Below, in pieces: positions 13,023 to 27,152 of a stretch of DNA of 64,000 nt (within the stretch, counting starts at the first letter, position 1; every line of letters begins with the position of its first letter). Source of the DNA: an uncultured Alphaproteobacteria bacterium (lineage in GTDB: Bacteria > Pseudomonadota > Alphaproteobacteria > CAAHEQ01 > UBA3637). The DNA is taken from the NCBI GenBank assembly GCA_944392795.1, contig CALXXX010000006.1, forward strand, positions 18,485-82,484. Direction: 5' to 3'. The translations under genes and the position numbers were made by a program. Below the pieces are notes generated by a model. That model was not told the DNA's origin, ran no database searches, and saw only the letters and a list, made by a program, of their open reading frames with translations.

Positions 13023-13052
13023 TTGACTTTTCCTAGAGTAATATGATATAAT
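13023..13052 (+). promoter_or_regulatory. Sigma70-like promoter (TTGACT, 18 nt spacer, TATAAT) for the 13101 gene
   Basis: -35 at 13023-13028 and -10 at 13047-13052. Two tandem 11-bp repeats (agtaatataat at 13065-13086) follow, before the RBS aagggag. Confidence 0.5.
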
Positions 13053-13100
13053 ACTAATGTAAATAGTAATATAATAGTAATATAAAAGACTAAGGGAGAA

Positions 13101-13826
13101 ATGACGATTATGGTAAAAGAAACAAATTTGGATGAAGAAAAGAAATATGTTGAAGGAGAAGATTTTTTTGCCACTCCAGCAGAACGGATGAAGGGTAATA
13201 TGGATATGCTTAAAAATGCCAGCAATTTTGCTGATTTATCACCTGAGCAAGCGGAACAGATGGCAGAAAAGATTAATGGATTAGTTCAATCGGTTCTTGA
13301 GGGAATGAGCATGCTTACTCCAGATCAATTAAAAGAAAACACAGAGATTTTAAAAGGATTAGTTGAAAAAGGCTATGTACAAGCAGGAGATGCGTTATCC
13401 AAGCTGAATGAAAAAACGAAAGGCAGTGTTGAAGCTTTTTTGGGTTCAAATCCAAAAGATGTAATGAATGTCGTGGAAGGAACAGTCAAAGCTGTTGACG
13501 GTTTGGATAAAAATAGTGATACTCAGGTATTGGATGGGATGATTCAAGCTGGCGTTGGTGCTTTGAATATTGCTGCTGAACAAACACCAGAAGGACGGGC
13601 TATCTCAATGGTCAATAATATGGTAAATATGAGTGGTGATTTAAAGGAAGACTTAAAAAAAGCATCTAACTTCGGGCAAGGCACTAATGAAGGTGTAGCA
13701 ACACCGTCTATCCCTTCTGAAAAAGAGGCACAAAAGACAGAACTTCAATCTTTCATGGATCAAAAATACTCTGTTCAAAATGTGCCTTCTCAACTAATAA
13801 AAGGACGTGGCGGGCGTAATGATTAA
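13101..13826 (+). CDS. Hypothetical protein (241 aa), no signal peptide
   Basis: Good RBS (aagggag). Acidic and helical, with no known motif. Confidence 0.55.
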   Translation: MTIMVKETNLDEEKKYVEGEDFFATPAERMKGNMDMLKNASNFADLSPEQAEQMAEKINGLVQSVLEGMSMLTPDQLKENTEILKGLVEKGYVQAGDALSKLNEKTKGSVEAFLGSNPKDVMNVVEGTVKAVDGLDKNSDTQVLDGMIQAGVGALNIAAEQTPEGRAISMVNNMVNMSGDLKEDLKKASNFGQGTNEGVATPSIPSEKEAQKTELQSFMDQKYSVQNVPSQLIKGRGGRND

Positions 13827-13835
13827 GAGGCAATC

Positions 13836-14633
13836 ATGAACTTGAAAAAAAGTTTAGAACACGGAGTTCTTTTAGGTGCGACATTGTTAGCAACCAATGT
13901 CGCAGAGATGCAAAAATCAGAAATGGATAGTCCTAAAAAAGTTCAGCAGGAACAGGTTCATCATTCTCAATTAAAACTAATACAGGAAAATATAGATTCG
14001 TCTTGTAAGGCATATTATCATAATGGTCAACTGAGAGCTGAATTTCCAGCTTGTCCAGATGGAGTTGTCCCTGATAACGTTTCCTATGATGTTTTTGATG
14101 AAAGTGGCAGAAAAATTCAAACTAGGACTCAGCTTAGGAAAGAAATATTCAAAAGTGAGACAATCCGAGTTGATGATTTGGCTTTCAAATTAGAGGAAGC
14201 GAAAAGGCTTCCAGAGGCAGAACGAGACGAATTTATTTTAAATTTGCTTCAGAATTACACTCCCAAAGAAACAACTCAATCTATCCATATACTGAACCAG
14301 TGGAGAGTGTCTTTATATGACAAAGATCAAAAGCCTGCTGGAAGCTATACTCTAGAAGATACCGATTTTATTTGCCGCGATAATGATGAAGGTTCTTCTG
14401 GCTGGAAAACAGGTTATTTACGTAGCTATTCTCTTCCTGATGCTAATGGTGAAATGAAAACTTATGAAGTTAAAGGAAATTTTGCGTTAAAACGGCATTT
14501 ATCTATTGCTCAATTAAAATTTATTGATACCAATTTAAAACAGAAAGGTAAACGGCTCGATGTCGATAAATTTGATAATGCTGATTCGTCCCAGCTTTCT
14601 ATATTAGCTCTTCGAAAAGGAAGAGATTTATAA
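13836..14633 (+). CDS. Hypothetical secreted protein (265 aa)
   Basis: N-terminal signal-like segment LEHGVLLGATLLATNVAEMQ. Four Cys. No known motif. Confidence 0.55.
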   Translation: MNLKKSLEHGVLLGATLLATNVAEMQKSEMDSPKKVQQEQVHHSQLKLIQENIDSSCKAYYHNGQLRAEFPACPDGVVPDNVSYDVFDESGRKIQTRTQLRKEIFKSETIRVDDLAFKLEEAKRLPEAERDEFILNLLQNYTPKETTQSIHILNQWRVSLYDKDQKPAGSYTLEDTDFICRDNDEGSSGWKTGYLRSYSLPDANGEMKTYEVKGNFALKRHLSIAQLKFIDTNLKQKGKRLDVDKFDNADSSQLSILALRKGRDL

Positions 14634-14662
14634 AAAAAAGCCGCTTTTGTAAGCGGCTTTTG
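14634..14662. terminator. Bidirectional rho-independent terminator
   Basis: AAAAAAAG-CCGCTT-ttgt-AAGCGG-CTTTTG, lying between the convergent 13836 gene and rpsD. Confidence 0.7.
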
Positions 14663-14679
14663 ATTCATTTGTAACTTTA

Positions 14680-15294
14680 TTATCTGGAGTAGAATTCGAC
14701 GACCAGATTTGGTTCCATTTGGCAAGCATATGGAATATCGGCCAAGTTTGGAACGCGAACAAAAGTACCGGACATATTTTTTTCATCAACTGTAATGTAA
14801 TCTGGAACAGAGCGTTCAGCAGAGGCCATGGCTTCGATTACCAGAGCCATTTCTTTTGCTTTTCCATTAACTTCAATGACATCTCCTTCTTTTACAAGAT
14901 AAGAAGGAATATTGACTTTTTTACCGTTGACTAAAATATGACCATGATTTACGAACTGACGTGCAGCGAAAACAGTCGGAACAAACTTCATCCGATATAC
15001 AACTGCATCCAAGCGGCTTTCCAAAATACCCACTAAGTTTTCGGAAGTATCACCTTTACGACGAATAGCTTCAGCATAATACTTACGTAATTGTTTTTCA
15101 GAAACATTGCCGTAATAACCTTTTAAGCGTTGTTTAGCACGCAACTGTGTGCCATAGTCGGTTGGTTTGCCATGATGTTGACCATGTTGACCGGGACCAT
15201 ATTCACGTTTGTTAAAAGGAGATTTTGCACGACCCCACAAGGATGTTCCTAAGCGGCGTTCAATTTTATACTTTGCATTAATGCGTTTTGACAT
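14680..15294 (-). CDS. rpsD: 30S ribosomal protein S4
   Basis: [38 protein letters not shown]. The gene is monocistronic. Confidence 0.95.
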
Positions 15295-15550
15295 GTTGTT
15301 TTTCCTTTATTGTCAATAATTTCCCCAATAGTTCCTGCCAGCGAAGCTGCGGACCGAATGAACAGGAAACCAACACCTGCATTCACTTTCTTGAGATTTG
15401 AGGAATGCATTTTATTAAAAAAAAAGCGACATGTCAAGATATATTTATTCTCGTTTGTCTGTTGTTGCTGTTGGGATGAGTGGCATTGATAAAAATTGAT
15501 TTGTTTTAAAAATATGCTATATTTTTTTTTATAAATTAAAAGGAAAGAAA

Positions 15551-16432
15551 ATGCAGCATTTTTCACTTCATACACATACGATTGGTTTTGATGGGCAAAA
15601 TACGGTCGAGGAAATGGTTAAGCAAGCCAAAAAATTACGTTGGTCAAGAATTGGGATTGCCAATCATTTTATTGTTCATCCTGACATAAAAAAGGCAACT
15701 TTTTATGCCTATGCCTGTAAAGGAAATTACCAAAATATTTATTCTGAAAACTTTGAAGAGGCTCTATTTAAATTTTTTCCTTTATTTCAAGAAATAAAGA
15801 GAATTGAACAAATCACTCAGTTTCCTATTTATAAAGGAATGGAGGTCGATTTTTTCGATACAACTCAGTGGAAGGGTGATTTTTATCGTATTATCAATCT
15901 TTTGAAACCAGACTATTTAATTGGTTCTGTGCATTTTGTCGATTATAAAGGTCATTTGTTAAATACACATGATATGAAGAAAGCATCTTTTATGGAACAA
16001 AAAGAGATTTTGAAAATATATTGGAAAAATGTGCGTTCGGCTATTAAATTTAAAGCCTTTGATTTTATGGCGCATTTAGATTTGCCGGCAAAAGTTGGAT
16101 TAGGGTATGGGAAAGAGTGGGAGAAAGAAGAAGAGGAAACAATAGCTCTGTTGGCTGCATGTGGAGGTAAAGCTGAAGTAAATACAAGTGCTTTGAGACA
16201 AAAAGATGAAGCTTATCCATCTAATCGAATTTTGAAATTACTTGCTAAGTATGAGATTCCTGTTGTGCTTTCAGATGATGCTCACAGCGTTTCGCAAATG
16301 GGGCAGTATTTTGAAAAAGGAACGGAATTGATGAAAAATGCAGGGATTAAACGTTCTATTTATCCAATTATGATTGCAGACCATATAAGGCAGCGAATTT
16401 ATATGGATTGGCATTTTATGCGAGTGAGATGA
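15551..16432 (+). CDS. PHP-domain phosphoesterase (histidinol-phosphatase-like family)
   Basis: N-terminal HTHT motif (MQHFSLHTHTIGFDG), later conserved His/Asp residues, and a C-terminal LSDDAHS. Confidence 0.6.
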   Translation: MQHFSLHTHTIGFDGQNTVEEMVKQAKKLRWSRIGIANHFIVHPDIKKATFYAYACKGNYQNIYSENFEEALFKFFPLFQEIKRIEQITQFPIYKGMEVDFFDTTQWKGDFYRIINLLKPDYLIGSVHFVDYKGHLLNTHDMKKASFMEQKEILKIYWKNVRSAIKFKAFDFMAHLDLPAKVGLGYGKEWEKEEEETIALLAACGGKAEVNTSALRQKDEAYPSNRILKLLAKYEIPVVLSDDAHSVSQMGQYFEKGTELMKNAGIKRSIYPIMIADHIRQRIYMDWHFMRVR

Positions 16433-16453
16433 ATTCAATTTTATAAAAAAGAT

Positions 16454-16482
16454 TTGCATTTAAGGAGAAAGAGTGATATAAG
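16454..16482 (+). promoter_or_regulatory. Sigma70-like promoter for tRNA-Pro
   Basis: TTGCAT (16454-59), a 17-nt spacer, then TATAAG (16477-82). The tRNA 5' end lies 12 nt downstream. Confidence 0.5.
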
Positions 16483-16494
16483 CTTTTTCATTGT

Positions 16495-16571
16495 CGGGGC
16501 GTAGCTCAGCCTGGTAGAGTACTTGTATGGGGTGCAAGGGGTCGTGGGTTCAAGTCCCGCCGCCCCGACCA
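16495..16571 (+). tRNA. tRNA-Pro (anticodon GGG)
   Basis: Manual cloverleaf: acceptor stem CGGGGCG/CGCCCCG with C1:G72 (typical of tRNA-Pro); D-arm GCTC..GAGT; anticodon stem CTTGT/GCAAG; loop ATGGGGT (U33, G34G35G36, G37); T-arm GTGGG-TTCAAGT-CCCGC; discriminator A; encoded CCA. Confidence 0.9.
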
Positions 16572-16574
16572 TTT

Positions 16575-16606
16575 AAGCCCTTGTTTTTCTAGGGCTTATT
16601 TTTTTT
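16575..16606 (+). terminator. Rho-independent terminator after tRNA-Pro
   Basis: AAGCCCT-tgtttttct-AGGGCTT followed by ATTTTTTTT. Confidence 0.8.
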
Positions 16607-16757
16607 GAAATCTAGCGTTATTTTTTGTCATTGATTTTAAAAGTTTTTTGAATTTCTAAAAATTTTTATCTGTTAAAAACAGAAAATGCAATATTCCTTC
16701 TTTATTAAAAATTCTTGAAAATTATTTTTTTGATGATATCCTTTGTAAGGAGGGAAA

Positions 16758-17840
16758 ATGCAACTCATAAAATCAAAAGTGCTTCGTAAAGGAGATACAA
16801 TAGCAGCAATTACATTGTCATTCGGAGCTGCTGGGTTGTTTCCTCATCGTTTTGAGCAGGGTGTTCGCCAGATTAAAGAGAGTTTTGGGATAAGTGTTGT
16901 TCCGACTTCACATGCATTGGATATGCCCGAAGAGGTTTATGCGCATCCAGAATATCGCTTAGCTGATTTAATGGAAGCTTTTGAGAATCCTGAGATTAAA
17001 GGCGTTTTGTGTAATATAGGAGGAGATGATACCATTCGTTTGCTGCAGTTGATGAACGAAAAACACTTTGATATTATTCGACAACATCCAAAAGTGTTTT
17101 TAGGATTTTCTGATACGACAGTTAATCATTTCATGTGTTTTGAAGCAGGCCTTTGTTCTTTTTATTCTCCCTCTCTTTTATTCGGATATGCTGAAAACGG
17201 AGGGATTCCGAATATAATGGTTGAAAATGCAAAAAAAACTTTATTTTCATCAGAACCTGTTGGCATTTTACCGGAAAGTGAAGCTTTTATTGTGGATACG
17301 ATTGATTGGTCAGATCAAACGGCGCCCATTCGTCCTCGTATTCCCTCAACACCTTGGCGGTATATTCAAGGAGAAAAAGTCGTTCAAGGTCATTTATTGG
17401 GAGGGTGTTTTGATGTATTAATGGGGTGTATTAATGGGACATCGTTATGGCCTTCTAAAGATGTTTGGGATGGAGCTATTTTGTTTCTGGAAATCAGCGA
17501 AGAAAGACCATCACCTTCATGGATAAAGTATTGGCTCAGATGTTTAGGTGCTCAGGGAATTTTAGAAAAGTTGAACGGGCTTTTGTTCGCAAGACCAGGG
17601 AATGGTTTTTTTAAGGATCAGGAAGATAGAGAGAATTGGTTAGCTCATTATACGGATTATGATACGGCTATTTTGACAGTTTTAAAAGAGTATGGTCGTT
17701 CAGATATGCCAGTTGTTACTCATATGGATTTTGGGCATACATTGCCACAACTTATTTTACCTTATGGGGTGCAGGCTCAAATCAATCCTGAGAAAAAACA
17801 AGTCGCATTATTAGAGAACGGTGTTGTAGATGATAATTAA
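16758..17840 (+). CDS. S66-family serine peptidase (LD-carboxypeptidase / microcin C7 immunity MccF-like)
   Basis: Nucleophile motif GFSDTTVNH within LD-carboxypeptidase-like N- and C-lobes. The protein is 360 aa. Confidence 0.7.
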   Translation: MQLIKSKVLRKGDTIAAITLSFGAAGLFPHRFEQGVRQIKESFGISVVPTSHALDMPEEVYAHPEYRLADLMEAFENPEIKGVLCNIGGDDTIRLLQLMNEKHFDIIRQHPKVFLGFSDTTVNHFMCFEAGLCSFYSPSLLFGYAENGGIPNIMVENAKKTLFSSEPVGILPESEAFIVDTIDWSDQTAPIRPRIPSTPWRYIQGEKVVQGHLLGGCFDVLMGCINGTSLWPSKDVWDGAILFLEISEERPSPSWIKYWLRCLGAQGILEKLNGLLFARPGNGFFKDQEDRENWLAHYTDYDTAILTVLKEYGRSDMPVVTHMDFGHTLPQLILPYGVQAQINPEKKQVALLENGVVDDN

Positions 17841-17865
17841 CAAGTTCTTTTGAAGAGGAAATAAA

Positions 17866-18399
17866 ATGTTGAAATTGTTTTTAGCTGAAGAGATTAATCT
17901 GCAAAAAATAAAAAAAGGATTACAAGAAATCAAGGATCATCCGTCTCCTTATGATATTTATCAAGTCAGGAAAGCAATTACTTTTATGGAAAAGGATTTT
18001 AAGGATTATTTAATTTATTTAAAAGAATGTTGTTCAGATAATCAACCAGAGGGTAGAGTTCCATCGACGGTTTTATTTTTATTCAATGATGATGTATTTG
18101 TCGGCGTTTATAATGTGCGGCATGAGTTGAATGAGGAGTTAAGGAAAAGCGGAGGGCATATTGCTTATGAAATTGTGCCATCTTATCGTCAAAAAGGTTA
18201 TGTGAAAGAAGGGCTTAAATTGATTTTGAAATGGTGTTCTGAGCAACTTAATTTACAAGAAGTTCTTCTTTCTTGCATTGCAGAGAATAAACCTTCGTAT
18301 CGGGCGATGATATCTGTTATGAAAGAAAAAGGGGGTTATGAAGATACACCGATAAAAATTGATAATCATTTAGAGTATAGGGTATGGATTAAAACTTAA
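17866..18399 (+). CDS. GNAT-family N-acetyltransferase
   Basis: GNAT core VGVYNVRHE...IAYEIVPSYRQKGYVKEGLKLIL. It lies immediately downstream of the S66 peptidase. Confidence 0.6.
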   Translation: MLKLFLAEEINLQKIKKGLQEIKDHPSPYDIYQVRKAITFMEKDFKDYLIYLKECCSDNQPEGRVPSTVLFLFNDDVFVGVYNVRHELNEELRKSGGHIAYEIVPSYRQKGYVKEGLKLILKWCSEQLNLQEVLLSCIAENKPSYRAMISVMKEKGGYEDTPIKIDNHLEYRVWIKT

Positions 18400-18502
18400 A
18401 ATGTGAAGTCAATTTCTTGGAATAAATGATGGAAAATAATTTAAAAATCTTGACAAAAATATCATTTTAGCATAATATCATTTTCGTTTAAAAGAGTGGA
18501 AA

Positions 18503-19966
18503 ATGATATTTGAAAACATACGAGATTATTTCCTTTTTTTTGAAGAAAAAATTTTACCTGAATTAAAGCAACATTCATATCAATCACCTAAAGGATACCA
18601 TGGTTTAGAAACACATACTTATCAGGTTGTCTTTCGCGCCATAGATTATGCTTTTCAACTTCATCAAGATCCTATGCCTGTTTTATTTGCCGCCGCTTTA
18701 CATGATTGTGCTCGTATAGATGACAGGTATGATGTGGAGCATGGTTTAAAGGCATTACCTTTAGCACGTCAAATTTTAAATCGTTTTCGAGAAGTTATAT
18801 CTCCTTCAAAGGATGAGGCTATTTTACGAGCTATTGCTCAGCATACCACGGGGCATCAACCAGTAGATTATATCAGCGCTTGTTTATGGGATGCAGACAG
18901 AACTCGTTTATCTTGGGAAAGGGGATTTGATGCTTCTTATTTTTCAACAGAGTATGCTAAAAAAAGAGCTTCTTCAGATCCAAGAATTTATTTAAATTAT
19001 CAAGCTCAAACTTTGAATAAAGCTTTCGAAGATCGTGAGGGCGTTCTTGTAGATTTTAAATCATTGATTAGAGACATTCATATTCAATCAGAAAAAACAT
19101 TTTGTTTACGTCATCAATATATGTTATGGGGGCGTCGGCAGCCTTTTAAAAATTTAGGTATCGTTGAAGATTTAAAACGTTTTTTGACAAAAGGGGTGCT
19201 TGTCGGTATAGACGGATTTTATTCATATCTTTGTTCCAGTCGGATAGAGGAAGATATGAATCCTGAAAAAATATATTTATTTTTTAATCTTCCTGAGGCA
19301 AAATTACAAGCACCTTTTTTTCGTTTAGATCATACAGCATGTGAAATAGATTTGGACAAAAAAGGGATAGAGAGTTTCTACTTAATGAATCAATATTTAC
19401 TCACAGATTTTTTACCTTGTTTGCAAACCGGTCTTGTTCGAGAAGGGTGGCAGGAAATAGAACCGATTTCTCTTAATTTTGATAAATGGGAAAATATGAT
19501 TTATCGTATTCCAGAGGAAGCTAAGATTACAGCTATTCGTCTCAGAAATAAGAAACCGTATTATTATCAATATTTACTTGAAAACAAAAAGAAAGAACAA
19601 TATATCTTTGAGCCGGAACAGCATTTGATGGATGGTTTTTCTCATAAGGTGGCAGTTGCTATAGAAGACGCTTTATTTGGACGGGCTGAGAACTTTTCAA
19701 AAGCTTATACGGATTTTATTCAAAATAAAATAATGCCTCTTGTAGAAAAAGAAAATTGGACTTGTGCTCTTGTTTTTCGAGGTCAGCAATTTCCTGCTCC
19801 GGAACGTATTATATATAAGGGATATGTTTTATTTGATAACAGCATTGATAGTTGTTTAGAAGTGGCAAATAAAATAACGCCGGCTTTTTTAAAACAAATA
19901 GAAGAAAAAAATATAATACATCATCACCAACTTCAGTTAGATTTAAAGGAGCATTCAAGAAGTTAA
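18503..19966 (+). CDS. HD-domain protein with a ~330-aa C-terminal region of unknown function
   Basis: N-terminal H...HD...H...D pattern (HGLETHTYQV, AALHDCARIDD, HTTGH, WDADR). Confidence 0.5.
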   Translation: MIFENIRDYFLFFEEKILPELKQHSYQSPKGYHGLETHTYQVVFRAIDYAFQLHQDPMPVLFAAALHDCARIDDRYDVEHGLKALPLARQILNRFREVISPSKDEAILRAIAQHTTGHQPVDYISACLWDADRTRLSWERGFDASYFSTEYAKKRASSDPRIYLNYQAQTLNKAFEDREGVLVDFKSLIRDIHIQSEKTFCLRHQYMLWGRRQPFKNLGIVEDLKRFLTKGVLVGIDGFYSYLCSSRIEEDMNPEKIYLFFNLPEAKLQAPFFRLDHTACEIDLDKKGIESFYLMNQYLLTDFLPCLQTGLVREGWQEIEPISLNFDKWENMIYRIPEEAKITAIRLRNKKPYYYQYLLENKKKEQYIFEPEQHLMDGFSHKVAVAIEDALFGRAENFSKAYTDFIQNKIMPLVEKENWTCALVFRGQQFPAPERIIYKGYVLFDNSIDSCLEVANKITPAFLKQIEEKNIIHHHQLQLDLKEHSRS

Positions 19967-19967
19967 A

Positions 19968-20333
19968 ATGTATGAAGATATTTTAAGAAAATTATCTCAA
20001 TCTTCATTTCGTAATCGTTTTCACTTGAGTGATCAGGATAAACAGTATGTGCGTCAAAAAGGAATAGAGACAATTCGAAAACATGCACAAGATTTTATTC
20101 AAAAACGAATTGCTCCTGAAGTTATTTTAAATGATGGGAAACAAACACCAATGCGTGGTCATCCTGTTTTCGTTGCGCAGCATGCAACGGCAACTTGTTG
20201 TCGAGGCTGTATTGAAAAATGGCATTATTTTTCAAAAGGATATCTTTTGACTGAAAAAGAGCAAGAATATCTCATCGGTTTAATTATGCTTTGGATAGAC
20301 CGACAAATGCTAGAAGAAAAAAAACAATCATAA
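19968..20333 (+). CDS. Small Cys-containing hypothetical protein (DUF4186-like)
   Basis: 121 aa with CCRGC...WHYFSKGY. The ATG overlaps the upstream stop. Confidence 0.5.
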   Translation: MYEDILRKLSQSSFRNRFHLSDQDKQYVRQKGIETIRKHAQDFIQKRIAPEVILNDGKQTPMRGHPVFVAQHATATCCRGCIEKWHYFSKGYLLTEKEQEYLIGLIMLWIDRQMLEEKKQS

Positions 20334-20341
20334 ATATCTTT

Positions 20342-22156
20342 TTAGTTTTTTTCCTTATGTAAAAAAGAATGCCATAAGTTTATTTCTTTTTTTATGTTTT
20401 CGTTTGCTGTTTCTTCAAACATATTTTTGAAAAAAGGTGTTTTATAAAGAGGAGACATGTTTTGAAGTTTTTTTAAGACTTCTAATCTTTTTTTTGAAAA
20501 AATTTTAATGGGCACATTTTTAAATTCTTCCCGAATTTTTTGGACATATAAAAAATAGCCGTTATGTGTTCCTAATATACTCAAATTTATATCGAAAATA
20601 ATTTTTTGTAATAACGTTGTTAGTTCATTTTTTTCTTGAACGTTTGTCGAATAAATTAAATCTGATAAAAGTTTTAGACTATCTTTTCCATATTCTCCTT
20701 TTTTTAAAAAATCCACAGCTTTTTTTGCTGAGATATCTTTATTGTTTAAGTCGTAATCATGGTAAAAAATGGCTGTTTTTAGCAAAGCGCGTTCTTTCGC
20801 TTTTAATGAACTAGATAAGCTTTCAAAGATTTGAAGGAAGTTAAACTGACGAGCCACATGCGATAAAGTATGATAAGACCTGTTTTCTTGATAGGCTAAA
20901 ACGAGTTCTTGAAAGCTGTCTGAAGCAGTCGAAGATGGAATTTTAAAAAAAGAACATAAATTAAAAAATTCTTTTTGAAGGTATTTTTCCATTAAAGCTT
21001 CATGAACTGTCGGGAAGATATATTCTTCTGCAACAATATATTCTCCACTTTCACAAAGCATTTTTGTATCGCTGGAAGAGATATGAGCTAAAATTTGTTG
21101 ATTGTCCGGCGTTAAAGTAAAAGCGCCGAGTTCTTTATTTCTTACGCTAAGGAGCTTTTGGTTAATGGTTGTTAATCTTGCTTCGTATTCGTGATCGTTA
21201 GTATTGCGTTCGCCTCGTAGAAGTGTGTTCGCGCCTACTTTTAAAGCGGCATCAATAGTCATTCCTTCATAAGCGACAACTTCTAATACTTCAGGTTTTT
21301 GTTTTAATTTGAGATAAGCCAATTTTTCTGTTTCAGAGAAGATAATATTATTAAGCTCTCTCATTTCATAGGCTTTTTTAAAATCGTCAATAGTTTGATG
21401 AATTAATTTAACTCTTTCCGGAGGAGAAAAAAGTGTTTTTTTATCAGGATTAACGCCGATACCGACATAAACTTTATCACAATGATGGATTGCTGCACAA
21501 ATTAGATTCCAATGCCCTTTTGTCATAGGATCAAAAGAACCTGCGTAAAATCCAATTAAAGGTTTATGATAATTGCTTTGAATAGAAGTCAGAATGGCAT
21601 CCAGTTGATTATGTAGTCCTTCAAGTGTGTCTGATAAAATGAGATAAGTTGATTTTTTCTTTTTTTCTTCCACTGACATTTGTTTCTGAAGAAGAGTTTC
21701 ATATTTTTCTTCTGTCATTCCAGGTCGAGCTAATGCGCGTCTTTTTTGTTCTTTTGAATCAATATACAGACAAACAGTGCTGTTGCATAAACGATCTAAT
21801 TCTGTTTCAAAAAGTAAAGGCGCATCAATAACAACAAGAGGTATATTTTTCTTGCGGAAAGAGTCTAAAGCTGCTTGTATTTCATGCATCACATAAGGCA
21901 TTGTCATGTCTTCTATTTTTTTTAAAGCTGTCGGATGGCTGAAAACGAGATGTGATAGCTTTTGTCTGTCTAATTGGTTATTTGTAAAAGCTTGTGGAAA
22001 AGCTTCAATCAGCTCTGTTTTTAACAAAGGATGATTTGCTTGCAATTCATGGACAAGAGCATCGCAATCAATAATTGGGCATCCTTTTTCTTTTAGATAA
22101 GTACTGGCAGTTGATTTTCCTGAAGCAATTGAACCTGTTAGACCAATGATGTGCAT
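20342..22156 (-). CDS. Tri-domain fusion: dephospho-CoA kinase (CoaE) + phosphopantetheine adenylyltransferase (CoaD-like) + C-terminal HD-like domain
   Basis: Residues 1-195 carry the CoaE P-loop GLTGSIASGKST. Residues ~198-370 carry CoaD motifs GSFDPMTKGHWNL, ERNTNDHEYE and ISSSDTK. Residues ~375-604 carry HTLSH...IFYHDYD. Confidence 0.7.
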   Translation of the reverse strand: MHIIGLTGSIASGKSTASTYLKEKGCPIIDCDALVHELQANHPLLKTELIEAFPQAFTNNQLDRQKLSHLVFSHPTALKKIEDMTMPYVMHEIQAALDSFRKKNIPLVVIDAPLLFETELDRLCNSTVCLYIDSKEQKRRALARPGMTEEKYETLLQKQMSVEEKKKKSTYLILSDTLEGLHNQLDAILTSIQSNYHKPLIGFYAGSFDPMTKGHWNLICAAIHHCDKVYVGIGVNPDKKTLFSPPERVKLIHQTIDDFKKAYEMRELNNIIFSETEKLAYLKLKQKPEVLEVVAYEGMTIDAALKVGANTLLRGERNTNDHEYEARLTTINQKLLSVRNKELGAFTLTPDNQQILAHISSSDTKMLCESGEYIVAEEYIFPTVHEALMEKYLQKEFFNLCSFFKIPSSTASDSFQELVLAYQENRSYHTLSHVARQFNFLQIFESLSSSLKAKERALLKTAIFYHDYDLNNKDISAKKAVDFLKKGEYGKDSLKLLSDLIYSTNVQEKNELTTLLQKIIFDINLSILGTHNGYFLYVQKIREEFKNVPIKIFSKKRLEVLKKLQNMSPLYKTPFFKNMFEETANENIKKEINLWHSFLHKEKN

Positions 22157-22168
22157 CTTTTTCTCCTT

Positions 22169-22681
22169 TTAAAAATTTTTATTTTGAATTTGGCACATAA
22201 TCTTTTCTGCCGCTTCTTTCGCTGAGATATTTGAAACATCAATGTGCTCTGTTTTCATATCTTGATATAATTTCTGATAGGCTAAGCTGCGTTCTATAAT
22301 ATCTTTGGTACGATGTCCAGCTTGAATTTCTTTTTCAAGTCTTGAACAAAGAGCTTTATCAGAGCAGGTGAGGGTAAAACGATATTCTTGAAAAGATAAA
22401 TCTTTTAGAGAACTGATGATTGTTTCAAAGATAATTTCATTCGGAATAACCCAAGAAAATATGACATATTCAAAAGAATCATTTTTTAAAAAAGAGCGCA
22501 ATAAAAAACAAATGTTTTCCATAACCATAGTTTTATTTTTTTCTGTCACTTGAAAAGGAGACATATCCCAACACCAGTCTCCGTCCAGATAAACAGAAGG
22601 GGTTATTTTTTGTTTGAGTAATTTGGATGTTGTTGTCTTTCCGACACCCATTGTGCCATTAATAAAAATCAGTTTTTTCAT
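22169..22681 (-). CDS. P-loop NTPase/kinase, TmrB/chloramphenicol-phosphotransferase-like (AAA_33-type)
   Basis: Walker A INGTMGVGKTTTSK. The protein is 170 aa. Confidence 0.55.
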   Translation of the reverse strand: MKKLIFINGTMGVGKTTTSKLLKQKITPSVYLDGDWCWDMSPFQVTEKNKTMVMENICFLLRSFLKNDSFEYVIFSWVIPNEIIFETIISSLKDLSFQEYRFTLTCSDKALCSRLEKEIQAGHRTKDIIERSLAYQKLYQDMKTEHIDVSNISAKEAAEKIMCQIQNKNF

Positions 22682-23211
22682 CTTAATATTTTACTAATAT
22701 GATATTCGTCGTGCCATTCGCCATTTATAAAAGCGACTTCGTGAAAAAGGCCATCAATTTCAAAACCTTGCTTTAAGTAAAGATTGATGCCACGTTTGTT
22801 TGTGGAGCGGACCAGTCCTTCAATACGATGCAAGTTTTGTTTACGAGCCCATTCTTCTATCTTTTGCATTAAATAAGTTCCAAGCCCTAGGCCATAATAG
22901 GCTTTAAGGATCGAAATTCCAAAAGAGGCGTTTCTGCCTGTCCATGGGTGTCCAGGTTTGTTGATTGCAATGGATATTTGACCAACAATTTCACCATTTT
23001 CTGCAAAAGCGCTTAAAAATAAATTTGTCGGTAATTCATAGATTCTAATAGAATTTTCTTTATCCCGATAAGGTTGTCCAGGATATTGATTAGTAAAAAC
23101 GGTTTCTTTTGATAAACGATCTAAAAAGAGCATAACAGCCTCATAGTCTTTTGCTTGAGTTTCTCTAATAATTAGTTTTTCACCGTTTTTAAGCGTAAAA
23201 AATTCATTCAT
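22678..23211 (-). CDS. GNAT-family N-acetyltransferase (RimJ/RimL-like)
   Basis: GNAT core EIVGQISI...RNASFGISILKAYYGLGLGTYLM. Its stop overlaps the kinase start (ATGA). Confidence 0.65.
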   Translation of the reverse strand: MNEFFTLKNGEKLIIRETQAKDYEAVMLFLDRLSKETVFTNQYPGQPYRDKENSIRIYELPTNLFLSAFAENGEIVGQISIAINKPGHPWTGRNASFGISILKAYYGLGLGTYLMQKIEEWARKQNLHRIEGLVRSTNKRGINLYLKQGFEIDGLFHEVAFINGEWHDEYHISKILR

Positions 23212-23222
23212 TTTATTCCTCC

Positions 23223-24122
23223 TTAAAAGATATGAAATAAATCAGCATATTGAAATGAAAGACCTATCATAAAATTGCTACCAGTTACAGATGCTCCGCG
23301 CGCTTTTCCGAGCCGATATGAAACATAGGGAGCTAGTGCTAATGTTTGAGTTATGCTGACATCCATTCTGGCTTTAACATTTAAATCATATTTTAAATCT
23401 GTCGCTTCATATTGGCTAAAGCTAAAATATGGCCTAAAATAACCTTCTGCAGCGAACTTAACGCCTTCTCGAATAGGATAATTTGCTCTAAAGCCGATTT
23501 CCGCAGCAGATTTGTAATTCGTCGGGCTATACGTAAAATCAGATTCACCGACCATGGCAATATATAGCTCTTCCAGATATTGACCATTAAAGAGTTTGAG
23601 ACCTCCCTTTAAACGAGCGACTTTATTACGAGGTGCATCTTGATTTGCAGTAAACTCAGTTTGAAAACCAATGCTGGCAAATGGACCTAAATCCGCTGTT
23701 TGGACTTTCCAAAGCTTTTGAGCTAAATCTGTCGTTACTAAAATTTCATCCGCATCTTCATTAGATGTTTTTTCTCCATTAGCTTTTTTAATTTTTGTTT
23801 TCCCATACTCCATATATAGGCCATTATTCCAAGTAAAATGATTTTGTTGATATTCTAGAACAAAATCAAAAACACCATTGATTTGCATTTCACTGTCAGC
23901 GTTGAATTCGCTAATGGGAGAATCTTGATATTCCTCTGCATGACTAACACTGGTATTAGAAAACTCCAAGGCAATTCGGCGAAAATTAGCTTTTAAAGTC
24001 GAAGGGGTATCTAATTTTTCGACAGGCTTTATATCAAGAAAAGAGTTTTCCTGAGCGGAAAGGGGAAGAGTAATTAAAAAAAAGCTCAGTATTATTCCTA
24101 TTTTTTTTCCAATTATCATCAC
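23223..24122 (-). CDS. Outer-membrane beta-barrel protein with signal peptide
   Basis: Signal peptide MMIIGKKIGIILSFFLITLPLSAQ, alternating amphipathic beta-strands, and a C-terminal ...FQYADLFHIF ending in Phe. Confidence 0.6.
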   Translation of the reverse strand: MMIIGKKIGIILSFFLITLPLSAQENSFLDIKPVEKLDTPSTLKANFRRIALEFSNTSVSHAEEYQDSPISEFNADSEMQINGVFDFVLEYQQNHFTWNNGLYMEYGKTKIKKANGEKTSNEDADEILVTTDLAQKLWKVQTADLGPFASIGFQTEFTANQDAPRNKVARLKGGLKLFNGQYLEELYIAMVGESDFTYSPTNYKSAAEIGFRANYPIREGVKFAAEGYFRPYFSFSQYEATDLKYDLNVKARMDVSITQTLALAPYVSYRLGKARGASVTGSNFMIGLSFQYADLFHIF

Positions 24123-24260
24123 TTAAAATCCTTTTTTATAAAAGTTCTTCTAGCGTATCTGATAATATTTTTTTTGACAAGAAATTTAATCAAAAATACT
24201 ACGATTTATTGATTTTTGTTTATTTTTTTGTTAAAATGCTTTTTACATATGGAGATTAAA

Positions 24261-24914
24261 ATGACACCAGAAAAAGCAATGCTAGAAGAAGTACAGGAAG
24301 CCGAGGTTATGCAGGAATTGTTAAATAAATTAGCTGAAATACCTCGTCGTGGTTGGGTTTTAAGAGGAGTTCAAAATCCGGAGAATGTGGCAGAACATTC
24401 ATTAGGTGTTGCAATGCAAGCCATGATGTATTGTTCGCGTGACCTTAATGCAAAGCGAGTACATGAGTTAGCTCTTATTCATGATTTGCCAGAAATTTAC
24501 GCAGGTGATGTAACGCCGCAAGATTGTGTCTCAAAAGCAGAAAAAGAAGCCGCAGAAAGACAAGCGATGGAGCGTATTATTCACGAAACAGGATGTACAT
24601 ATTTAATGCCTTTGTTTGAGGAGTTCCTAGAGCAAAAAACGCCAGAGGCTCATTTTGTAAATGATATGGATCGTTATCAGTGCGTTTTACAAGCAGAATA
24701 CTATGATAAAAATAACTTAGCTTCTCAGGAACTTGTTCCAGAATTTTATGCTTATGCAAACACTAAAATGAAAACGTCTATTGGAAAAAGTTTAATGGAA
24801 ATGTTCTATCGCCGGTGGGAACCTCAAGCTCAACAACGTCGTATTCTTCGTTCAAAGTGGCATGGAGGCGTTGTCTGTATCGCAGGTCAGCTAATAGAAT
24901 TAGCAAGAGATTAA
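24261..24914 (+). CDS. HD-domain hydrolase (YfbR-like 5'-deoxynucleotidase family)
   Basis: RRGW...ENVAEHS...HDLPE motif pattern. The start MTPEK is preceded by the RBS ggag. Confidence 0.6.
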   Translation: MTPEKAMLEEVQEAEVMQELLNKLAEIPRRGWVLRGVQNPENVAEHSLGVAMQAMMYCSRDLNAKRVHELALIHDLPEIYAGDVTPQDCVSKAEKEAAERQAMERIIHETGCTYLMPLFEEFLEQKTPEAHFVNDMDRYQCVLQAEYYDKNNLASQELVPEFYAYANTKMKTSIGKSLMEMFYRRWEPQAQQRRILRSKWHGGVVCIAGQLIELARD

Positions 24915-25952: not shown

Positions 25953-27152
25953 ATGACCCAAGAAGGAACTCAAGTAACGACACCTCAAATACAATATGTT
26001 GGAGATGGTGTTCAGACAAATTTTAGCTTTTCCTTTCAAATCTTTGAAGAAAGTAATTTGAAAGTTTATTTAGGGAGTGTTTTACAACAAAAAGGCTATA
26101 CAGTTCAGAAGGAAGAAGAAAGTTTAGGGGGAACAGTTATTTTTAATGAAGCTCCGGTATCTGGTGAGCTTATTACTTTAGTACGAGAGCTTGATTTAGA
26201 GCGGACAACAGATTTCGCTTCCGGAGGCGTTTTACGAGCTGCTGATTTAAACTATGAGTTTGATTATCAAATGGGATGTTTGCAACAATTATCTTCTGGA
26301 TTGAGCCGTTCTTTATTGTTGCCTGTTTTTGAAAATAAAGAGGGGATTGATTTTAGCTTACCAGCACCTGAGGCTAATAAAGCTCTTGTCTGGAATGCAC
26401 AAGGTAATTCGTTGATGAATAGTCAAGTTGAAATAGGGAATTTAGATGCTTCTCTTACTCAGGCAGTATCAACAGTTTCTGATTTGGCTGAAGAGGTCAG
26501 TCAAATGAAAGAAAATGCTCAAGAAGCTGCAACGACAGCTACGACGCAAGCAGCAATAGCGACACAGAAAGCACAAGAAGTTCAGCAGAACTTCTCTAAT
26601 TTATATCCTTTTCATGTCAATTCGAACAGTTGTGATTTAAATAGCTTAACAGCCTCAGGAATTTATGAAGTGATAGCTTCGGCGCATTATCCTTTAGATA
26701 CAGGATATTATCATGTTGAGGTATATGTTCCGTCACAAGGTAATATAGTTCAGACAGCTTATGCAGTTGGTGCAAGTATGGGAGGGTATCCAGCTACTTA
26801 TCGTCGTCGTTTTATAAACAGTGCTTGGGAAGATTGGCTTCAGATTTCTAATGAAGGAATGGGGAGTCCTTCAGGGCAAGTGATTAATATTTCTGTAGAA
26901 AGTGCCGGAGAACAACATGTTTTAAATTCTCCTGCAAATGGATTTTATTGCTTGATAGGTTTATCAACTGCAGCTTCTCAGGAAGTTTATTTGAGTAATT
27001 CAGTAAATGGTATGGCTGTTTTAAGCTCTGCAACAGCTCCATCTAAGAATCTCGCAATTTTCTTGCCGGTCTCAGCTAATCAAAATGTGCGCTATTTATA
27101 TACAACAGCAGGTACAGTGACATTGAAATTTATTTATGCGAAAGGAGTTTAA
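25953..27152 (+). CDS. Phage T7 gp17-like tail-fibre protein (N-terminal tail-attachment domain plus a divergent C-terminal domain)
   Basis: N-terminus QYVGDGVQTNFSFSFQIFEESNLKVYL...TDFASGGVLRAADLNYEFDYQ parallels T7 gp17 YQLDGSNRDFNIPFEY...VDFTDGSILRAYDLNVAQIQ. Confidence 0.65.
   Translation: MTQEGTQVTTPQIQYVGDGVQTNFSFSFQIFEESNLKVYLGSVLQQKGYTVQKEEESLGGTVIFNEAPVSGELITLVRELDLERTTDFASGGVLRAADLNYEFDYQMGCLQQLSSGLSRSLLLPVFENKEGIDFSLPAPEANKALVWNAQGNSLMNSQVEIGNLDASLTQAVSTVSDLAEEVSQMKENAQEAATTATTQAAIATQKAQEVQQNFSNLYPFHVNSNSCDLNSLTASGIYEVIASAHYPLDTGYYHVEVYVPSQGNIVQTAYAVGASMGGYPATYRRRFINSAWEDWLQISNEGMGSPSGQVINISVESAGEQHVLNSPANGFYCLIGLSTAASQEVYLSNSVNGMAVLSSATAPSKNLAIFLPVSANQNVRYLYTTAGTVTLKFIYAKGV

What the first reader, a model, noticed from the sequence alone, without database searches (positions are those of the whole stretch)
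16433..24914. tRNA-Pro-adjacent accessory island made almost entirely of nucleotide and peptidyl-nucleotide processing enzymes
Just downstream of tRNA-Pro(GGG) the gene content changes from housekeeping to a dense set of small-molecule nucleotide enzymes arranged as two convergent operons whose stops lie 9 nt apart. The plus operon is S66 MccF-like peptidase, GNAT, HD-domain protein and DUF4186-like protein. The minus operon is OMP, GNAT, TmrB-like P-loop kinase and a CoaE-CoaD-HD fusion. It is flanked by a PHP phosphoesterase (15551) and a YfbR-like HD 5'-nucleotidase (24261). In total the island holds one kinase, one adenylyltransferase, three HD and one PHP phosphohydrolase, two GNATs and an amide-bond peptidase of the family that detoxifies aminoacyl-adenylate antibiotics. 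That mix is what would be expected either for self-immunity and detoxification of a Trojan-horse aminoacyl-nucleotide antibiotic (microcin C or agrocin-84 class, the latter being an alphaproteobacterial product) or for synthesis or salvage of a modified nucleotide or cofactor. I do not know of a described system with this architecture.
Basis: partly seen in the sequence, partly recalled or inferred. Interest (0 to 1): 0.72.

Follow-up and report, generated by a model that had tools for sequence, protein, structure and literature searches.

The report
Ordinary gene cluster, not an island
The flagged stretch is a vertically inherited piece of chromosome from an uncultured gut alphaproteobacterium. 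Its essential coenzyme-A synthesis gene sits next to several small, unrelated, detox-type enzyme genes, so it is neither a mobile island nor a single antibiotic-immunity system.

Summary

The "accessory island / single system" reading fails every test I could run.
- Composition and codon usage match the rest of the window.
- There is no integrase and no repeat of the tRNA end.
- A sister species (~80% aa identity) has the same tRNA-Pro and every one of these genes in the same order. About 10 kb of other genes is interleaved, including 4.4 kb between the two "convergent operons".

The CoaE-CoaD-HD fusion is a lineage-wide core gene. Its CoaD-HD homologs in 31 related genomes never sit next to the kinase, a GNAT or an S66. 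Among 39 S66-ortholog loci of at least 6 kb, only the sister species keeps the same partners.

What remains is three small independent modules:
- an MccF-clade S66 peptidase plus a GNAT (catalytic triad and adenine-stacking Trp conserved);
- a GNAT/P-loop-kinase pair, whose family is recurrently fused to GNATs elsewhere;
- an HD protein with DUF4186.

Modest novelty lies in the PDE-like HD domain fused to CoaD. Interest is low to moderate.

The parts
15551..16432 (+). PHP-domain phosphoesterase of the HisJ (histidinol-phosphatase) family; backbone gene, not part of any island
   Evidence: Pfam PHP 2e-11. TIGR01856 scores 90.0 bits against a cutoff of 90.2. It is 76% identical and lies in the same place next to rpsD in the sister species.
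16495..16571 (+). tRNA-Pro(GGG); conserved at the same position in the same-species MAG and in the sister species
   Evidence: ARAGORN. Its 3' end is not repeated anywhere in the 64-kb window.
16758..17840 (+). S66 serine peptidase of the MccF / Ba3275 clade; triad S118, E245, H327; W184 aligns with the adenine-stacking W186 of MccF
   Evidence: Pfam S66 N- and C-terminal domains. PDB hits: Ba3275 2e-85, E. coli MccF 4e-20, LdcA 5e-13. Alignment with genuine MccF from the mcc cluster in L175. More than 2000 homologs, many at 50-70% identity in alphaproteobacterial MAGs.
17866..18399 (+). GNAT1, an N-acetyltransferase of the Acetyltransf_3 (RimJ/RimL-like) type, 25 nt downstream of S66; its sister-species ortholog is fused to a NUDIX domain
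   Evidence: Pfam PF13302 6e-10. PDB 3fbu 5e-7. It is 68% identical to the N-terminal half of a 313-aa GNAT::NUDIX protein. Its similarity to the MccE acetyltransferase domain (9e-5) is no better than that of the control GNAT2 (3e-4).
18503..19966 (+). 487-aa protein: an N-terminal HD phosphohydrolase module (aa 1-~175) plus a ~310-aa C-terminal region of unknown fold, found only in this species and its sister
19968..20333 (+). DUF4186 protein (E. coli YneG family), 1 nt downstream of the HD protein; function unknown
   Evidence: Pfam PF13811 6e-51. YneG is listed as an uncharacterised DUF4186 protein (PMC11502571). The pair with HD-487 is kept in the sister species, but not next to other HD-module proteins.
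20342..22156 (-). Triple fusion: CoaE (dephospho-CoA kinase, aa 1-176), CoaD (phosphopantetheine adenylyltransferase, aa ~200-391, with an insertion) and a PDE-like HD domain (aa ~395-604, nt 20345-20974); a lineage core gene
22169..22681 (-). Small P-loop NTPase/kinase (AAA_18), overlapping the upstream GNAT2 by 4 nt; member of a family repeatedly fused to GNAT domains
   Evidence: Pfam AAA_18 6e-16. Weak matches to Gar/GrdA (34 bits), BH3686 (2bdt, 4e-5) and TmrD (2vli, 3e-4). There are 1015 representative homologs, and 11 of 26 multidomain ones carry a GNAT.
22678..23211 (-). GNAT2, an N-acetyltransferase of the Acetyltransf_1 type (nearest named models YhhY/PRK10140 and ArsN1, far below their cutoffs)
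   Evidence: Pfam PF00583 8e-16 and NCBIfam. It has a 45% ortholog next to MsrB/HD_3 in the more distant relative L174, with no kinase and no CoA fusion there.
23223..24122 (-). DUF3078 outer-membrane beta-barrel-like protein, first gene of the minus-strand set
   Evidence: Pfam PF11276 1.5e-6. It is 85% identical in the sister species. A 50% homolog lies two genes upstream of the 41%-identical fusion in L005.
24216..24914 (+). HD_3 / YfbR-like HD phosphohydrolase; a backbone gene overlapping msrB by 4 nt
   Evidence: Pfam HD_3 5e-35 and YfbR-like 2e-10. It is conserved next to MsrB in the sister species (70%) and in L174 (36%).

Best explanation
The region is an ordinary, vertically inherited chromosome segment of an uncultured, low-GC, gut-associated alphaproteobacterium. 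It is a mosaic of independent units, not a mobile island and not one pathway.

(a) Backbone genes are shared with relatives: rpsD, HisJ-like PHP, tRNA-Pro, DUF3078 OMP, HD_3 and msrBA.

(b) The lineage's core CoA gene is a CoaE-CoaD fusion that performs the last two steps of CoA synthesis. It carries an extra PDE-like HD domain. I infer that this domain is a phosphodiesterase acting on a phosphopantetheine- or CoA-related phosphodiester, because it is fused to CoaD in more than 30 related genomes.

(c) Three small modules of the stand-alone detox / house-cleaning type have collected in this rearrangement-prone stretch:
- S66 + GNAT1. The S66 is an MccF-clade serine carboxypeptidase that most likely cleaves an acyl/aminoacyl-nucleotide-type amide bond. 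The GNAT probably N-acetylates the same class of compound.
- HD-487 + DUF4186. This is a metal-dependent phosphohydrolase with an unknown partner.
- GNAT2 + AAA_18 kinase. This is a two-enzyme small-molecule modification pair (acetylation plus phosphorylation), like known antibiotic-modifying pairs.

What is shown: the domain identities, the conserved catalytic residues, vertical inheritance, and the lack of linkage between the modules. What is inferred: the substrates and the detox roles.
For: Organism. L008 (99% aa, 96.4% nt) and 30+ homolog loci are all gut/rumen 'uncultured Alphaproteobacteria' MAGs.

Not an island.
- GC is flat.
- GC3 and codon usage do not differ from the rest of the window (p = 0.55 and 0.88), and tetranucleotide distance is within range.
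- There is no att-like repeat.
- No integrase was found among the scanned genes.
- tRNA-Pro is conserved in the sister species.
- Every gene has a sister-species ortholog at 60-85% identity, like the flanks.

Not one system.
- The sister species has EptA, DUF4491, Band_7 and a 266-aa ORF between DUF4186 and the fusion. It has HIT, NUDIX and a 74-aa ORF between GNAT1 and HD-487. It has six genes between the tRNA and S66.
- Neighbours of the 31 CoaD-HD loci are flavin reductase (8), NrdD (5), NrdG-like (4), cation efflux (4) and FTHFS (3). No GNAT, AAA_18 or S66 family appears in the frequent list.
- More distant full-length fusions sit beside relA/spoT-lepB-rnc-era, rpoZ, or rpsF-rpsR-rplI.
- Across 63 S66 ortholog loci, the 126 immediate neighbours include GNAT only 6 times. 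The rest are MFS, methyltransferases, APH, glyoxalase, nitroreductase and NUDIX.
- The more distant relative L174 (rpsD 91% identical) has rpsD ... HD-module protein - HD_3 - MsrB - GNAT2 ortholog, with no S66, kinase or CoA fusion.

Module evidence.
- The S66 triad and W184 match MccF S118/E243/H311/W186 (PMC8323819).
- All four informative loci with at least 65% S66 identity have a GNAT within ~2 kb: the window, the sister species, L090 and L095.
- GNAT1 is fused to NUDIX in the sister species.
- AAA_18-family homologs are fused to a GNAT in 11 of 26 multidomain representatives, in both orders.
- GNAT2 and AAA_18 overlap by 4 nt.
Against: - Clustering of 2 GNATs, 4 HD domains and an S66 in 8 kb is more than a naive per-gene expectation. 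The sister species has even more (4 GNAT, 4 NUDIX domains, HIT, nitroreductase). Some shared selective logic, such as a detox-gene hotspot, cannot be excluded.
- No whole genome was available, so I could not show that the fusion is the only CoaD/CoaE.
- Substrates are wholly inferred.
- The closest solved S66 homolog (Ba3275) is itself uncharacterised, and no literature on it was found.
- The GNAT2 ortholog in L174 lacks an adjacent kinase, so the GNAT2-kinase pairing is not obligatory.
- The excess of GNAT neighbours around S66 (6 of 126) is not clearly above the internal control (at most 2 of 115 around CoaD-HD).
Confidence: 0.75

Rival explanations
1. First reader's reading. The whole 8.5-kb block is one dedicated system for self-immunity to, or detoxification of, a Trojan-horse aminoacyl-/peptidyl-nucleotide antibiotic (microcin C or agrocin 84 class). 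All peptidase, GNAT, kinase, HD and adenylyltransferase activities would act on one compound.
For: - The S66 is MccF-like, with the triad and the adenine-stacking Trp conserved.
- GNAT and (in the sister species) HIT are the other two known McC resistance chemistries (PMC7157772).
- The agrocin-84 plasmid carries an MccF-like gene, agnC5, 27% identical to this S66.
Against: - The modules are separated by unrelated genes in the sister species.
- The modules do not co-occur in 31 CoaD-HD loci or in 39 S66 loci of at least 6 kb.
- The 'adenylyltransferase' is a bona fide PPAT fused to CoaE and is a lineage core gene.
- No MccB/ThiF-like enzyme, precursor peptide or exporter is nearby, unlike the real mcc cluster.
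- GNAT1's similarity to MccE is no better than that of a control GNAT.
Confidence: 0.05
2. A horizontally acquired genomic island integrated at tRNA-Pro(GGG).
For: - It is adjacent to a tRNA gene.
- Gene content downstream of the tRNA differs between the two species: six extra genes in the sister species.
- There is strain-level cassette variation nearby.
Against: - No integrase or recombinase was found.
- The tRNA 3' end has no direct repeat.
- Composition and codon usage are indistinguishable from the flanks.
- Orthologs in the sister species diverge like the flanking genes.
- The block contains the lineage's core CoA gene.
Confidence: 0.05
3. The minus-strand operon is a CoA salvage line. 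The AAA_18 kinase would phosphorylate pantetheine or pantothenate, the fusion would convert 4'-phosphopantetheine to CoA, the HD domain would release phosphopantetheine from carrier proteins or CoA derivatives, and the OMP would import the precursor.
For: - The four genes are tightly packed, with gaps of 11, -4 and 12 nt.
- A DUF3078 OMP also lies near the 41%-identical fusion in L005.
- The HD domain is constantly fused to CoaD.
- CoaE-GrpB fusions and an AAA_18-GrpB fusion show some shared fusion partners.
Against: - The kinase and GNAT2 are next to the fusion only in two sister species, out of 33 lineage loci.
- The AAA_18 family is broad and is mostly paired or fused with GNAT, HAD, APH and similar domains, not with CoA genes.
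- There is no similarity to any known pantothenate kinase model.
- The GNAT2 ortholog occurs without kinase or fusion in L174.
Confidence: 0.07
4. The S66 protein is simply the cell's LD-carboxypeptidase for murein-peptide recycling, and its GNAT neighbour is coincidental.
For: - Sources annotate homologs as LdcA / LD-carboxypeptidase.
- The gene is highly conserved (50-70%) across many Alphaproteobacteria, like a core gene.
- In L090 it follows mltG (YceG).
Against: - It is closer to MccF than to LdcA (4e-20 against 5e-13), and it scores only 36 bits against the 378-bit cutoff of the LdcA equivalog model.
- It has the MccF-type insert carrying the adenine-stacking Trp.
- Its neighbours across 63 loci are detox-like genes rather than cell-wall genes.
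Confidence: 0.2

Closest known systems
MccF (E. coli microcin C7 immunity peptidase) and stand-alone MccF homologs such as the B. anthracis enzyme
   Same: - Two-domain S66 fold.
- The Ser118-Glu-His triad is conserved.
- W184 aligns with MccF W186, the Trp that stacks on adenine.
- It is a stand-alone chromosomal gene, like many MccF homologs (PMC8323819).
   Different: - Only 26-27% identical to MccF and to agnC5.
- It is not in an mcc-like cluster.
- Positions 246-247 of MccF (RK) are EE here.
- Activity is untested.
B. anthracis Ba3275 'MccC family protein' (PDB 5F9M, 5F5X, 5F1Y, 5JYB)
   Same: It is the closest solved homolog, at E 2e-85 over the full length, and shares the same insert and Trp.
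   Different: Ba3275 itself has no published function that I could find, so the match gives a fold and a clade but not a substrate.
Bifunctional PPAT/DPCK enzymes (eukaryotic CoA synthase; bacterial CoaE+CoaD two-domain proteins in Clostridia and other MAGs)
   Same: The last two CoA steps are on one polypeptide. Pfam CoaE + CTP_transf_like architecture also occurs in ~370-400-aa bacterial proteins.
   Different: - The order here is CoaE-CoaD.
- It has a third, PDE-like HD domain that Pfam does not recognise.
- The full triple fusion was seen in only about seven protein clusters (P0001-P0006, P0019).
- The CoaD-HD two-domain form is the common one in gut Alphaproteobacteria.
- The domain order of eukaryotic CoA synthase is from my own knowledge and was not tested here.
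HD-superfamily phosphohydrolases / class-I cyclic-nucleotide phosphodiesterase catalytic domains (PDE8A, PDE7A, PDE5; bacterial YedJ, 2pq7, YpgQ, YqeK)
   Different: - 13-18% identity to the PDEs.
- The fusion domain has no Pfam HD hit.
- Substrates are unknown.
Small P-loop antibiotic kinases/ATP-binding resistance proteins (Gar/GrdA, TmrB/TmrD, chloramphenicol phosphotransferase-like) and bifunctional acetyltransferase-phosphotransferase resistance enzymes
   Same: - Size, Walker A motif and AAA_18 fold class.
- Weak hits to Gar (PMC7085159 describes gar), TmrD (2vli) and, in some homologs, CPT.
- Recurrent fusion or pairing with GNAT domains.
   Different: - All named-family scores are far below cutoffs.
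- No substrate is known.
- The comparison with AAC-APH bifunctional enzymes is an analogy from my own knowledge. Those use an APH-type kinase fold, not a P-loop.
tRNA-linked genomic islands
   Same: It lies directly downstream of a tRNA gene, and gene content there varies between species.
   Different: It lacks the integrase, flanking direct repeats and composition bias, and it is not absent from relatives.

Membership tests
MccF-type S66 peptidase (aminoacyl-/peptidyl-nucleotide amidase) | Two-domain S66 fold with a Ser-Glu-His catalytic triad | tested here: met
   Pfam S66 N- and C-terminal domains. S118, E245 and H327 are invariant in 10 orthologs and align with MccF S118, E243 and H311.
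MccF-type S66 peptidase (aminoacyl-/peptidyl-nucleotide amidase) | Trp in the inserted loop that stacks on the adenine (MccF W186; PMC8323819) | tested here: met
   W184 aligns with W186. A Trp is present in most orthologs, but it is Phe in P0070.
MccF-type S66 peptidase (aminoacyl-/peptidyl-nucleotide amidase) | Closer to MccF than to the murein LD-carboxypeptidase LdcA | tested here: met
   PDB phmmer gives MccF 4e-20 and LdcA (6uuk) 5e-13. The LdcA equivalog NF008424 scores 36 bits against a cutoff of 378.
MccF-type S66 peptidase (aminoacyl-/peptidyl-nucleotide amidase) | Hydrolyses processed McC or aminoacyl-adenylate analogues and confers resistance | not testable with these tools
   This needs an enzyme assay or heterologous expression.
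mcc-like biosynthetic/immunity cluster | MccB (ThiF-like adenylyltransferase), precursor peptide and exporter next to the immunity genes | tested here: not met
   No ThiF or MFS genes were found among the genes scanned from 11.5 to 32.6 kb. Genuine cluster for comparison: L175.
MccE-CTD / RimL-type acetyltransferase (GNAT1) | Specific similarity to the MccE C-terminal acetyltransferase domain beyond generic GNAT similarity | tested here: not met
   GNAT1 against MccE gives E 9e-5 at 21% identity. The control, GNAT2 against MccE, gives 3e-4. No MccE structure appears among the PDB hits at E<=0.01. Only the broad Acetyltransf_3 family matches.
tRNA-linked genomic island | Integrase or recombinase gene at the tRNA-proximal end | tested here: not met
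   None is present among the Pfam-scanned genes of the window or the sister locus.
tRNA-linked genomic island | Direct repeat of the tRNA 3' end marking the far boundary | tested here: not met
   A 25-mer with up to 3 mismatches and a 16-mer with up to 2 mismatches each match only the tRNA itself in the 64-kb window.
tRNA-linked genomic island | Atypical composition or codon usage, and absence from close relatives | tested here: not met
   MWU p = 0.09, 0.55 and 0.88, and tetranucleotide distance is in range. All genes are present in the sister species.
CoaE (dephospho-CoA kinase) | Equivalog-level match | tested here: met
   TIGR00152 scores 137.4 bits against a cutoff of 65.55. Pfam CoaE 8e-40.
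CoaD (phosphopantetheine adenylyltransferase) | Equivalog-level match and the H/TxGH nucleotidyltransferase motif | tested here: inconclusive
   TIGR01510 scores 99.0 bits, just under the 103.3 cutoff, because of a ~40-aa insertion. The family profile hits more than 30 solved PPATs at 1e-23 to 5e-34. T212, G214 and H215 are invariant. I take it to be a PPAT.
HD superfamily (fusion C-terminal domain) | H...HD...D metal ligands and the HD/PDEase helical fold | tested here: met
TmrB/TmrD or Gar antibiotic-resistance P-loop proteins (AAA_18 gene) | Family-level profile match | tested here: not met
   Gar/GrdA scores 34.3 bits against a cutoff of 170. TmrD structure 2vli matches at only E 3e-4. The sole Pfam family above its gathering score is AAA_18.
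YfbR-type 5'-deoxynucleotidase (HD_3 gene) | Pfam family membership / NCBI equivalog | tested here: inconclusive
   PF13023 scores 121 bits and PF12917 scores 40.9 bits (above its cutoff), but the equivalog PRK03826 scores 30.5 against 122. It is a family member whose substrate is not established.

The most novel reading that the evidence does not exclude
The plus-strand genes, best seen in the sister species as S66 - GNAT::NUDIX - HIT - NUDIX - HD-487 - DUF4186, could form a multi-enzyme operon that dismantles toxic aminoacyl-/peptidyl-nucleotide antibiotics in gut Alphaproteobacteria. It would combine all three known microcin-C resistance chemistries (amidase, N-acetylase, phosphoramidase) with new NUDIX/HD nucleotide clean-up steps. 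The window species would carry a reduced version. Separately, the PDE-like HD domain fused to CoaD could be a new phosphopantetheine-recycling phosphodiesterase.
Probability: 0.15. Interest if true: 0.55.

Novelty: new member of a known kind. Interest (0 to 1): 0.25.

Why it matters
It matters mainly as a negative result. A suggestive concentration of nucleotide-processing domains next to a tRNA gene does not by itself indicate an island or a system, and comparison with a single sister genome was enough to break it apart.

Three smaller points may be useful to specialists:
1. Gut-associated Alphaproteobacteria encode CoaD permanently fused to a PDE-like HD domain that Pfam does not recognise. 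In a few lineages CoaE is fused as well. This suggests an undescribed step in CoA or phosphopantetheine turnover.
2. A family of ~170-aa P-loop proteins is recurrently fused or paired with GNAT acetyltransferases. This suggests a two-step small-molecule modification module of the antibiotic-resistance type.
3. An MccF-clade peptidase that retains the adenine-stacking Trp is widespread and well conserved in Alphaproteobacteria. That makes it a candidate intrinsic resistance factor against aminoacyl-nucleotide antibiotics in gut communities, where microcin C is produced.

Tried and rejected
- Att-site search with the tRNA 3' end found nothing.
- A PADLOC defence-system scan of all ten proteins gave nothing except a sub-threshold VakA hit for the kinase, so I rejected the anti-phage defence reading.
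- Pfam at E<=10 on the fusion C-terminal domain and on the HD-487 C-terminal region gave no hits.
- The AF2 model of HD-487 is unusable beyond residue 180 (pLDDT below 50), so its C-terminal ~310 aa remain uncharacterised.
- The AFDB fold library was not available.
- A literature search for Ba3275 or its PDB codes found nothing.
- I found no open-access source for MccF substrate-binding residues other than S118 and W186. The RK to EE difference at MccF 246-247 is therefore reported without interpretation.
- DUF4186 is not a regular partner of HD-module proteins.
- The promoter/terminator scan was uninformative. Counts were at the shuffle level. The only result worth noting is one good promoter-like site before HD-487, and there is no terminator in the 8-nt convergent gap.

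Full report
OBSERVATION.
- PHP protein, 15551-16432 (+)
- tRNA-Pro(GGG), 16495-16571 (+)
- S66 peptidase, 16758-17840 (+)
- GNAT1, 17866-18399 (+)
- 487-aa HD protein, 18503-19966 (+)
- DUF4186, 19968-20333 (+)
- 604-aa CoaE-CoaD fusion, 20342-22156 (-)
- AAA_18 P-loop protein, 22169-22681 (-)
- GNAT2, 22678-23211 (-)
- DUF3078 outer-membrane protein, 23223-24122 (-)
- HD_3/YfbR-like protein, 24216-24914 (+)
- msrB and msrA follow.

The convergent gene sets end 8 nt apart, and GNAT2 overlaps the kinase gene by 4 nt. Pfam and NCBIfam confirm every family call except 'TmrB-like'. That protein matches only AAA_18, plus weak sub-threshold resemblance to Gar/GrdA (34 bits against a cutoff of 170), BH3686 and the TmrD structure 2vli (E 3e-4).

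ORGANISM. The fusion protein occurs exactly on one ENA metagenome contig (L001). It occurs at 99% in an 'uncultured Alphaproteobacteria' MAG (L008) and at 80% in a second MAG (L009/L088). More distant homologs come almost entirely from gut and rumen alphaproteobacterial MAGs. L008 is 96.4% identical in DNA over 17.5 kb, so it is the same species. L088 is 68-85% identical in DNA, so it is a sister species.

IS IT AN ISLAND? No.
- GC is flat at 0.30-0.38.
- The eight genes from S66 through the OMP (16758-24122) do not differ from 55 other ORFs of the window in GC (p = 0.09), GC3 (p = 0.55) or codon-usage distance (p = 0.88).
- The region's tetranucleotide distance (0.0124) lies inside the range of 8-kb sliding windows (0.0076-0.0141).
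- The tRNA 3' end is not repeated anywhere in the window.
- No integrase appears among the scanned genes.
- The sister species has tRNA-Pro(GGG) at the same place, after rpsD and PHP.
- The sister species has every gene of the region in the same order and orientation: PHP 76%, S66 78%, GNAT1 68%, HD-487 60%, DUF4186 73%, fusion 80%, kinase 72%, GNAT2 76%, OMP 85%, HD_3 70%, MsrB 71%. Divergence is like that of the flanks, which indicates vertical descent.

IS IT ONE SYSTEM? No. The sister-species order is: rpsD - PHP - tRNA-Pro - [269-aa ORF, nitroreductase, GNAT, GNAT, NUDIX, 177-aa ORF] - S66 - GNAT1::NUDIX - [74-aa ORF, HIT, NUDIX] - HD-487 - DUF4186 - [266-aa ORF, Band_7, DUF4491, EptA] - fusion - kinase - GNAT2 - OMP - HD_3 - MsrB - MsrA. 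The two 'convergent operons' are therefore 4.4 kb apart there.

Among 31 loci from related genomes that encode a CoaD-HD or CoaE-CoaD-HD homolog, none has a homolog of the kinase, GNAT2, S66, GNAT1, HD-487 or DUF4186 within 10 kb. Pfam scanning of their 115 nearest neighbours gives flavin reductase (8), NrdD (5), radical-SAM/NrdG-like (4), cation efflux (4), FTHFS (3) and so on, with no GNAT or AAA_18 among the frequent families. More distant full-length fusions lie beside relA/spoT-lepB-rnc-era, after rpoZ, or near rpsF-rpsR-rplI. The fusion is thus a lineage-wide core gene whose neighbours here are incidental.

I also fetched eighty S66 ortholog loci from metagenomes. Of the 39 loci of at least 6 kb (these also include L088-L091), only the two sister-species loci keep GNAT1, HD-487 and DUF4186. 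Among 126 immediate neighbours in 63 loci, GNAT is the commonest family but with only 6 members. The rest include MFS (5), methyltransferases (4), APH, glyoxalase, nitroreductase and NUDIX (2 each).

A more distant relative, L174 (rpsD 91% identical), has rpsD ... alr, a ubiquitin-like ORF, a 200-aa ORF, an HD-module::alpha/beta-hydrolase protein, HD_3, MsrB and a 45% ortholog of GNAT2. It has no S66, no kinase and no CoA fusion. The rpsD...msrB neighbourhood is therefore old, and its contents have been reshuffled repeatedly.

THE COA FUSION. Residues 1-176 are an equivalog-level dephospho-CoA kinase (TIGR00152, 137 bits). Residues ~200-391 are a PPAT. TIGR01510 scores 99 bits, just under its cutoff because of a ~40-aa insertion. 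A profile of the family hits more than 30 solved PPATs at E down to 5e-34.

The two-domain CoaD-HD form (~400 aa) is the common one in gut Alphaproteobacteria. The triple fusion was seen in only about seven protein clusters (P0001-P0006, P0019). I infer, without a test, that the HD domain acts on a phosphopantetheine- or CoA-related phosphodiester.

THE S66 MODULE. The closest solved relative is the uncharacterised B. anthracis Ba3275 (E 2e-85). E. coli MccF follows at 4e-20 and LdcA at 5e-13. I retrieved the genuine mcc cluster from an E. coli plasmid: ThiF-like MccB, MFS MccC, methyltransferase MccD, 589-aa MccE and S66 MccF (L175). I aligned its MccF with the window protein.

The nucleophile S118, E243 and H311 of MccF align with S118, E245 and H327. 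W186, which stacks on the adenine of processed microcin C (PMC8323819), aligns with W184. The review also states that LdcA does not protect against McC and that stand-alone MccF homologs are numerous.

GNAT1 belongs to the broad Acetyltransf_3 (RimJ/RimL-like) group. Its similarity to the MccE acetyltransferase domain (9e-5) is no better than that of the unrelated GNAT2 (3e-4), so there is no specific MccE relationship.

Points in favour of a functional S66-GNAT link within this clade:
- All four informative loci with at least 65% S66 identity have a GNAT within about 2 kb.
- GNAT1 is fused to a NUDIX domain in the sister species, where a HIT hydrolase also follows.
- S66, GNAT and HIT are the three known enzymatic McC resistance types (PMC7157772).

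I therefore consider a stand-alone 'toxic aminoacyl-nucleotide clean-up' role the most likely function of S66+GNAT1. The probability is only moderate.

THE GNAT2-KINASE MODULE. An exhaustive HMMER search found 1015 representative homologs of the 170-aa P-loop protein. Of the 26 multidomain proteins among the best 150, eleven carry a GNAT domain, in either order. Other partners are HAD, UPF0167, SnoaL_2, DUF6557, GrpB, a YbaK-like tRNA_edit domain, GT8 and APH. Some members also weakly match chloramphenicol-phosphotransferase-like models.

This Rosetta-stone pattern, together with the 4-nt overlap, argues that GNAT2 and the kinase act together on one small molecule. Their adjacency to the CoA fusion is confined to the two sister species. 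The GNAT2 ortholog of L174 has no kinase beside it.

VERDICT. The region is a vertically inherited, rearrangement-prone stretch in which a core CoA-synthesis gene is flanked by independent small detox-type modules. Novelty is limited to new members or variants of known families. Interest is low to moderate.

Noticed in passing
window 28319-32639: This stretch has the lowest GC in the neighbourhood (0.26-0.30). It holds a 720-aa GT2 glycosyltransferase and a 717-aa ORF with no Pfam hit. The 24-32 kb window has the highest tetranucleotide distance in the whole 64 kb (0.0141). It looks more island-like than the flagged region.
   Followed up: partly
window 12921-14632 (ORFs 13101-13826 and 13836-14633) vs L008 17515-20551: There is a strain-variable cassette between ProRS and rpsD. 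The window and L001 carry two ORFs with no Pfam hits (241 and 265 aa). The same-species MAG L008 carries a 616-aa and a 367-aa ORF there instead. The sister species has both sets (PMT_2 and GT2/GtrA plus the 239- and 265-aa ORFs).
   Followed up: partly
window 23562 / L001 1-2553: Metagenome contig L001 is 99.96% identical to window 10342-23562. It then diverges in the middle of the DUF3078 OMP gene into unrelated genes (LPG_synthase_C and others). L008 supports the window's arrangement, so L001 is probably a chimeric assembly or a strain rearrangement.
   Followed up: partly
window 25953-27152 (+): A 399-aa ORF has a weak match to the N-terminal domain of the phage T7 tail fibre (5e-5, below cutoff). 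It overlaps the start of msrA by 67 nt. It is conserved as a 320-aa protein in the sister species.
   Followed up: no
L173 5001-7128: A homolog of the HD-487 N-terminal HD module is fused to an ART-PolyVal (ADP-ribosyltransferase-like) domain. It sits beside an ADP-ribosylglycohydrolase gene. The HD module is promiscuously fused across many proteins (alpha/beta-hydrolase, UDG, glycosyltransferase).
   Followed up: partly
L174 7303-8463 (-): A 386-aa ORF in a bacterial (alphaproteobacterial) contig has Pfam ubiquitin and Rad60-SLD hits. It lies between alr and an HD-module protein.
   Followed up: no
L010, L014 (record titles): Contigs encoding typical alphaproteobacterial CoaD-HD proteins are labelled Muribaculaceae and Lactobacillaceae in their MAG titles. 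This is probably mis-binning.
   Followed up: no
window 10057-10887 (-): Another HD-domain protein (276 aa) lies 5.7 kb upstream of the flagged region. HD proteins are therefore not confined to the 'island'.
   Followed up: no
window 15249-15575 (-): A 108-aa GTG-start ORF overlaps the rpsD and PHP gene starts. It is low-complexity (a Q-run) and most likely spurious.
   Followed up: no
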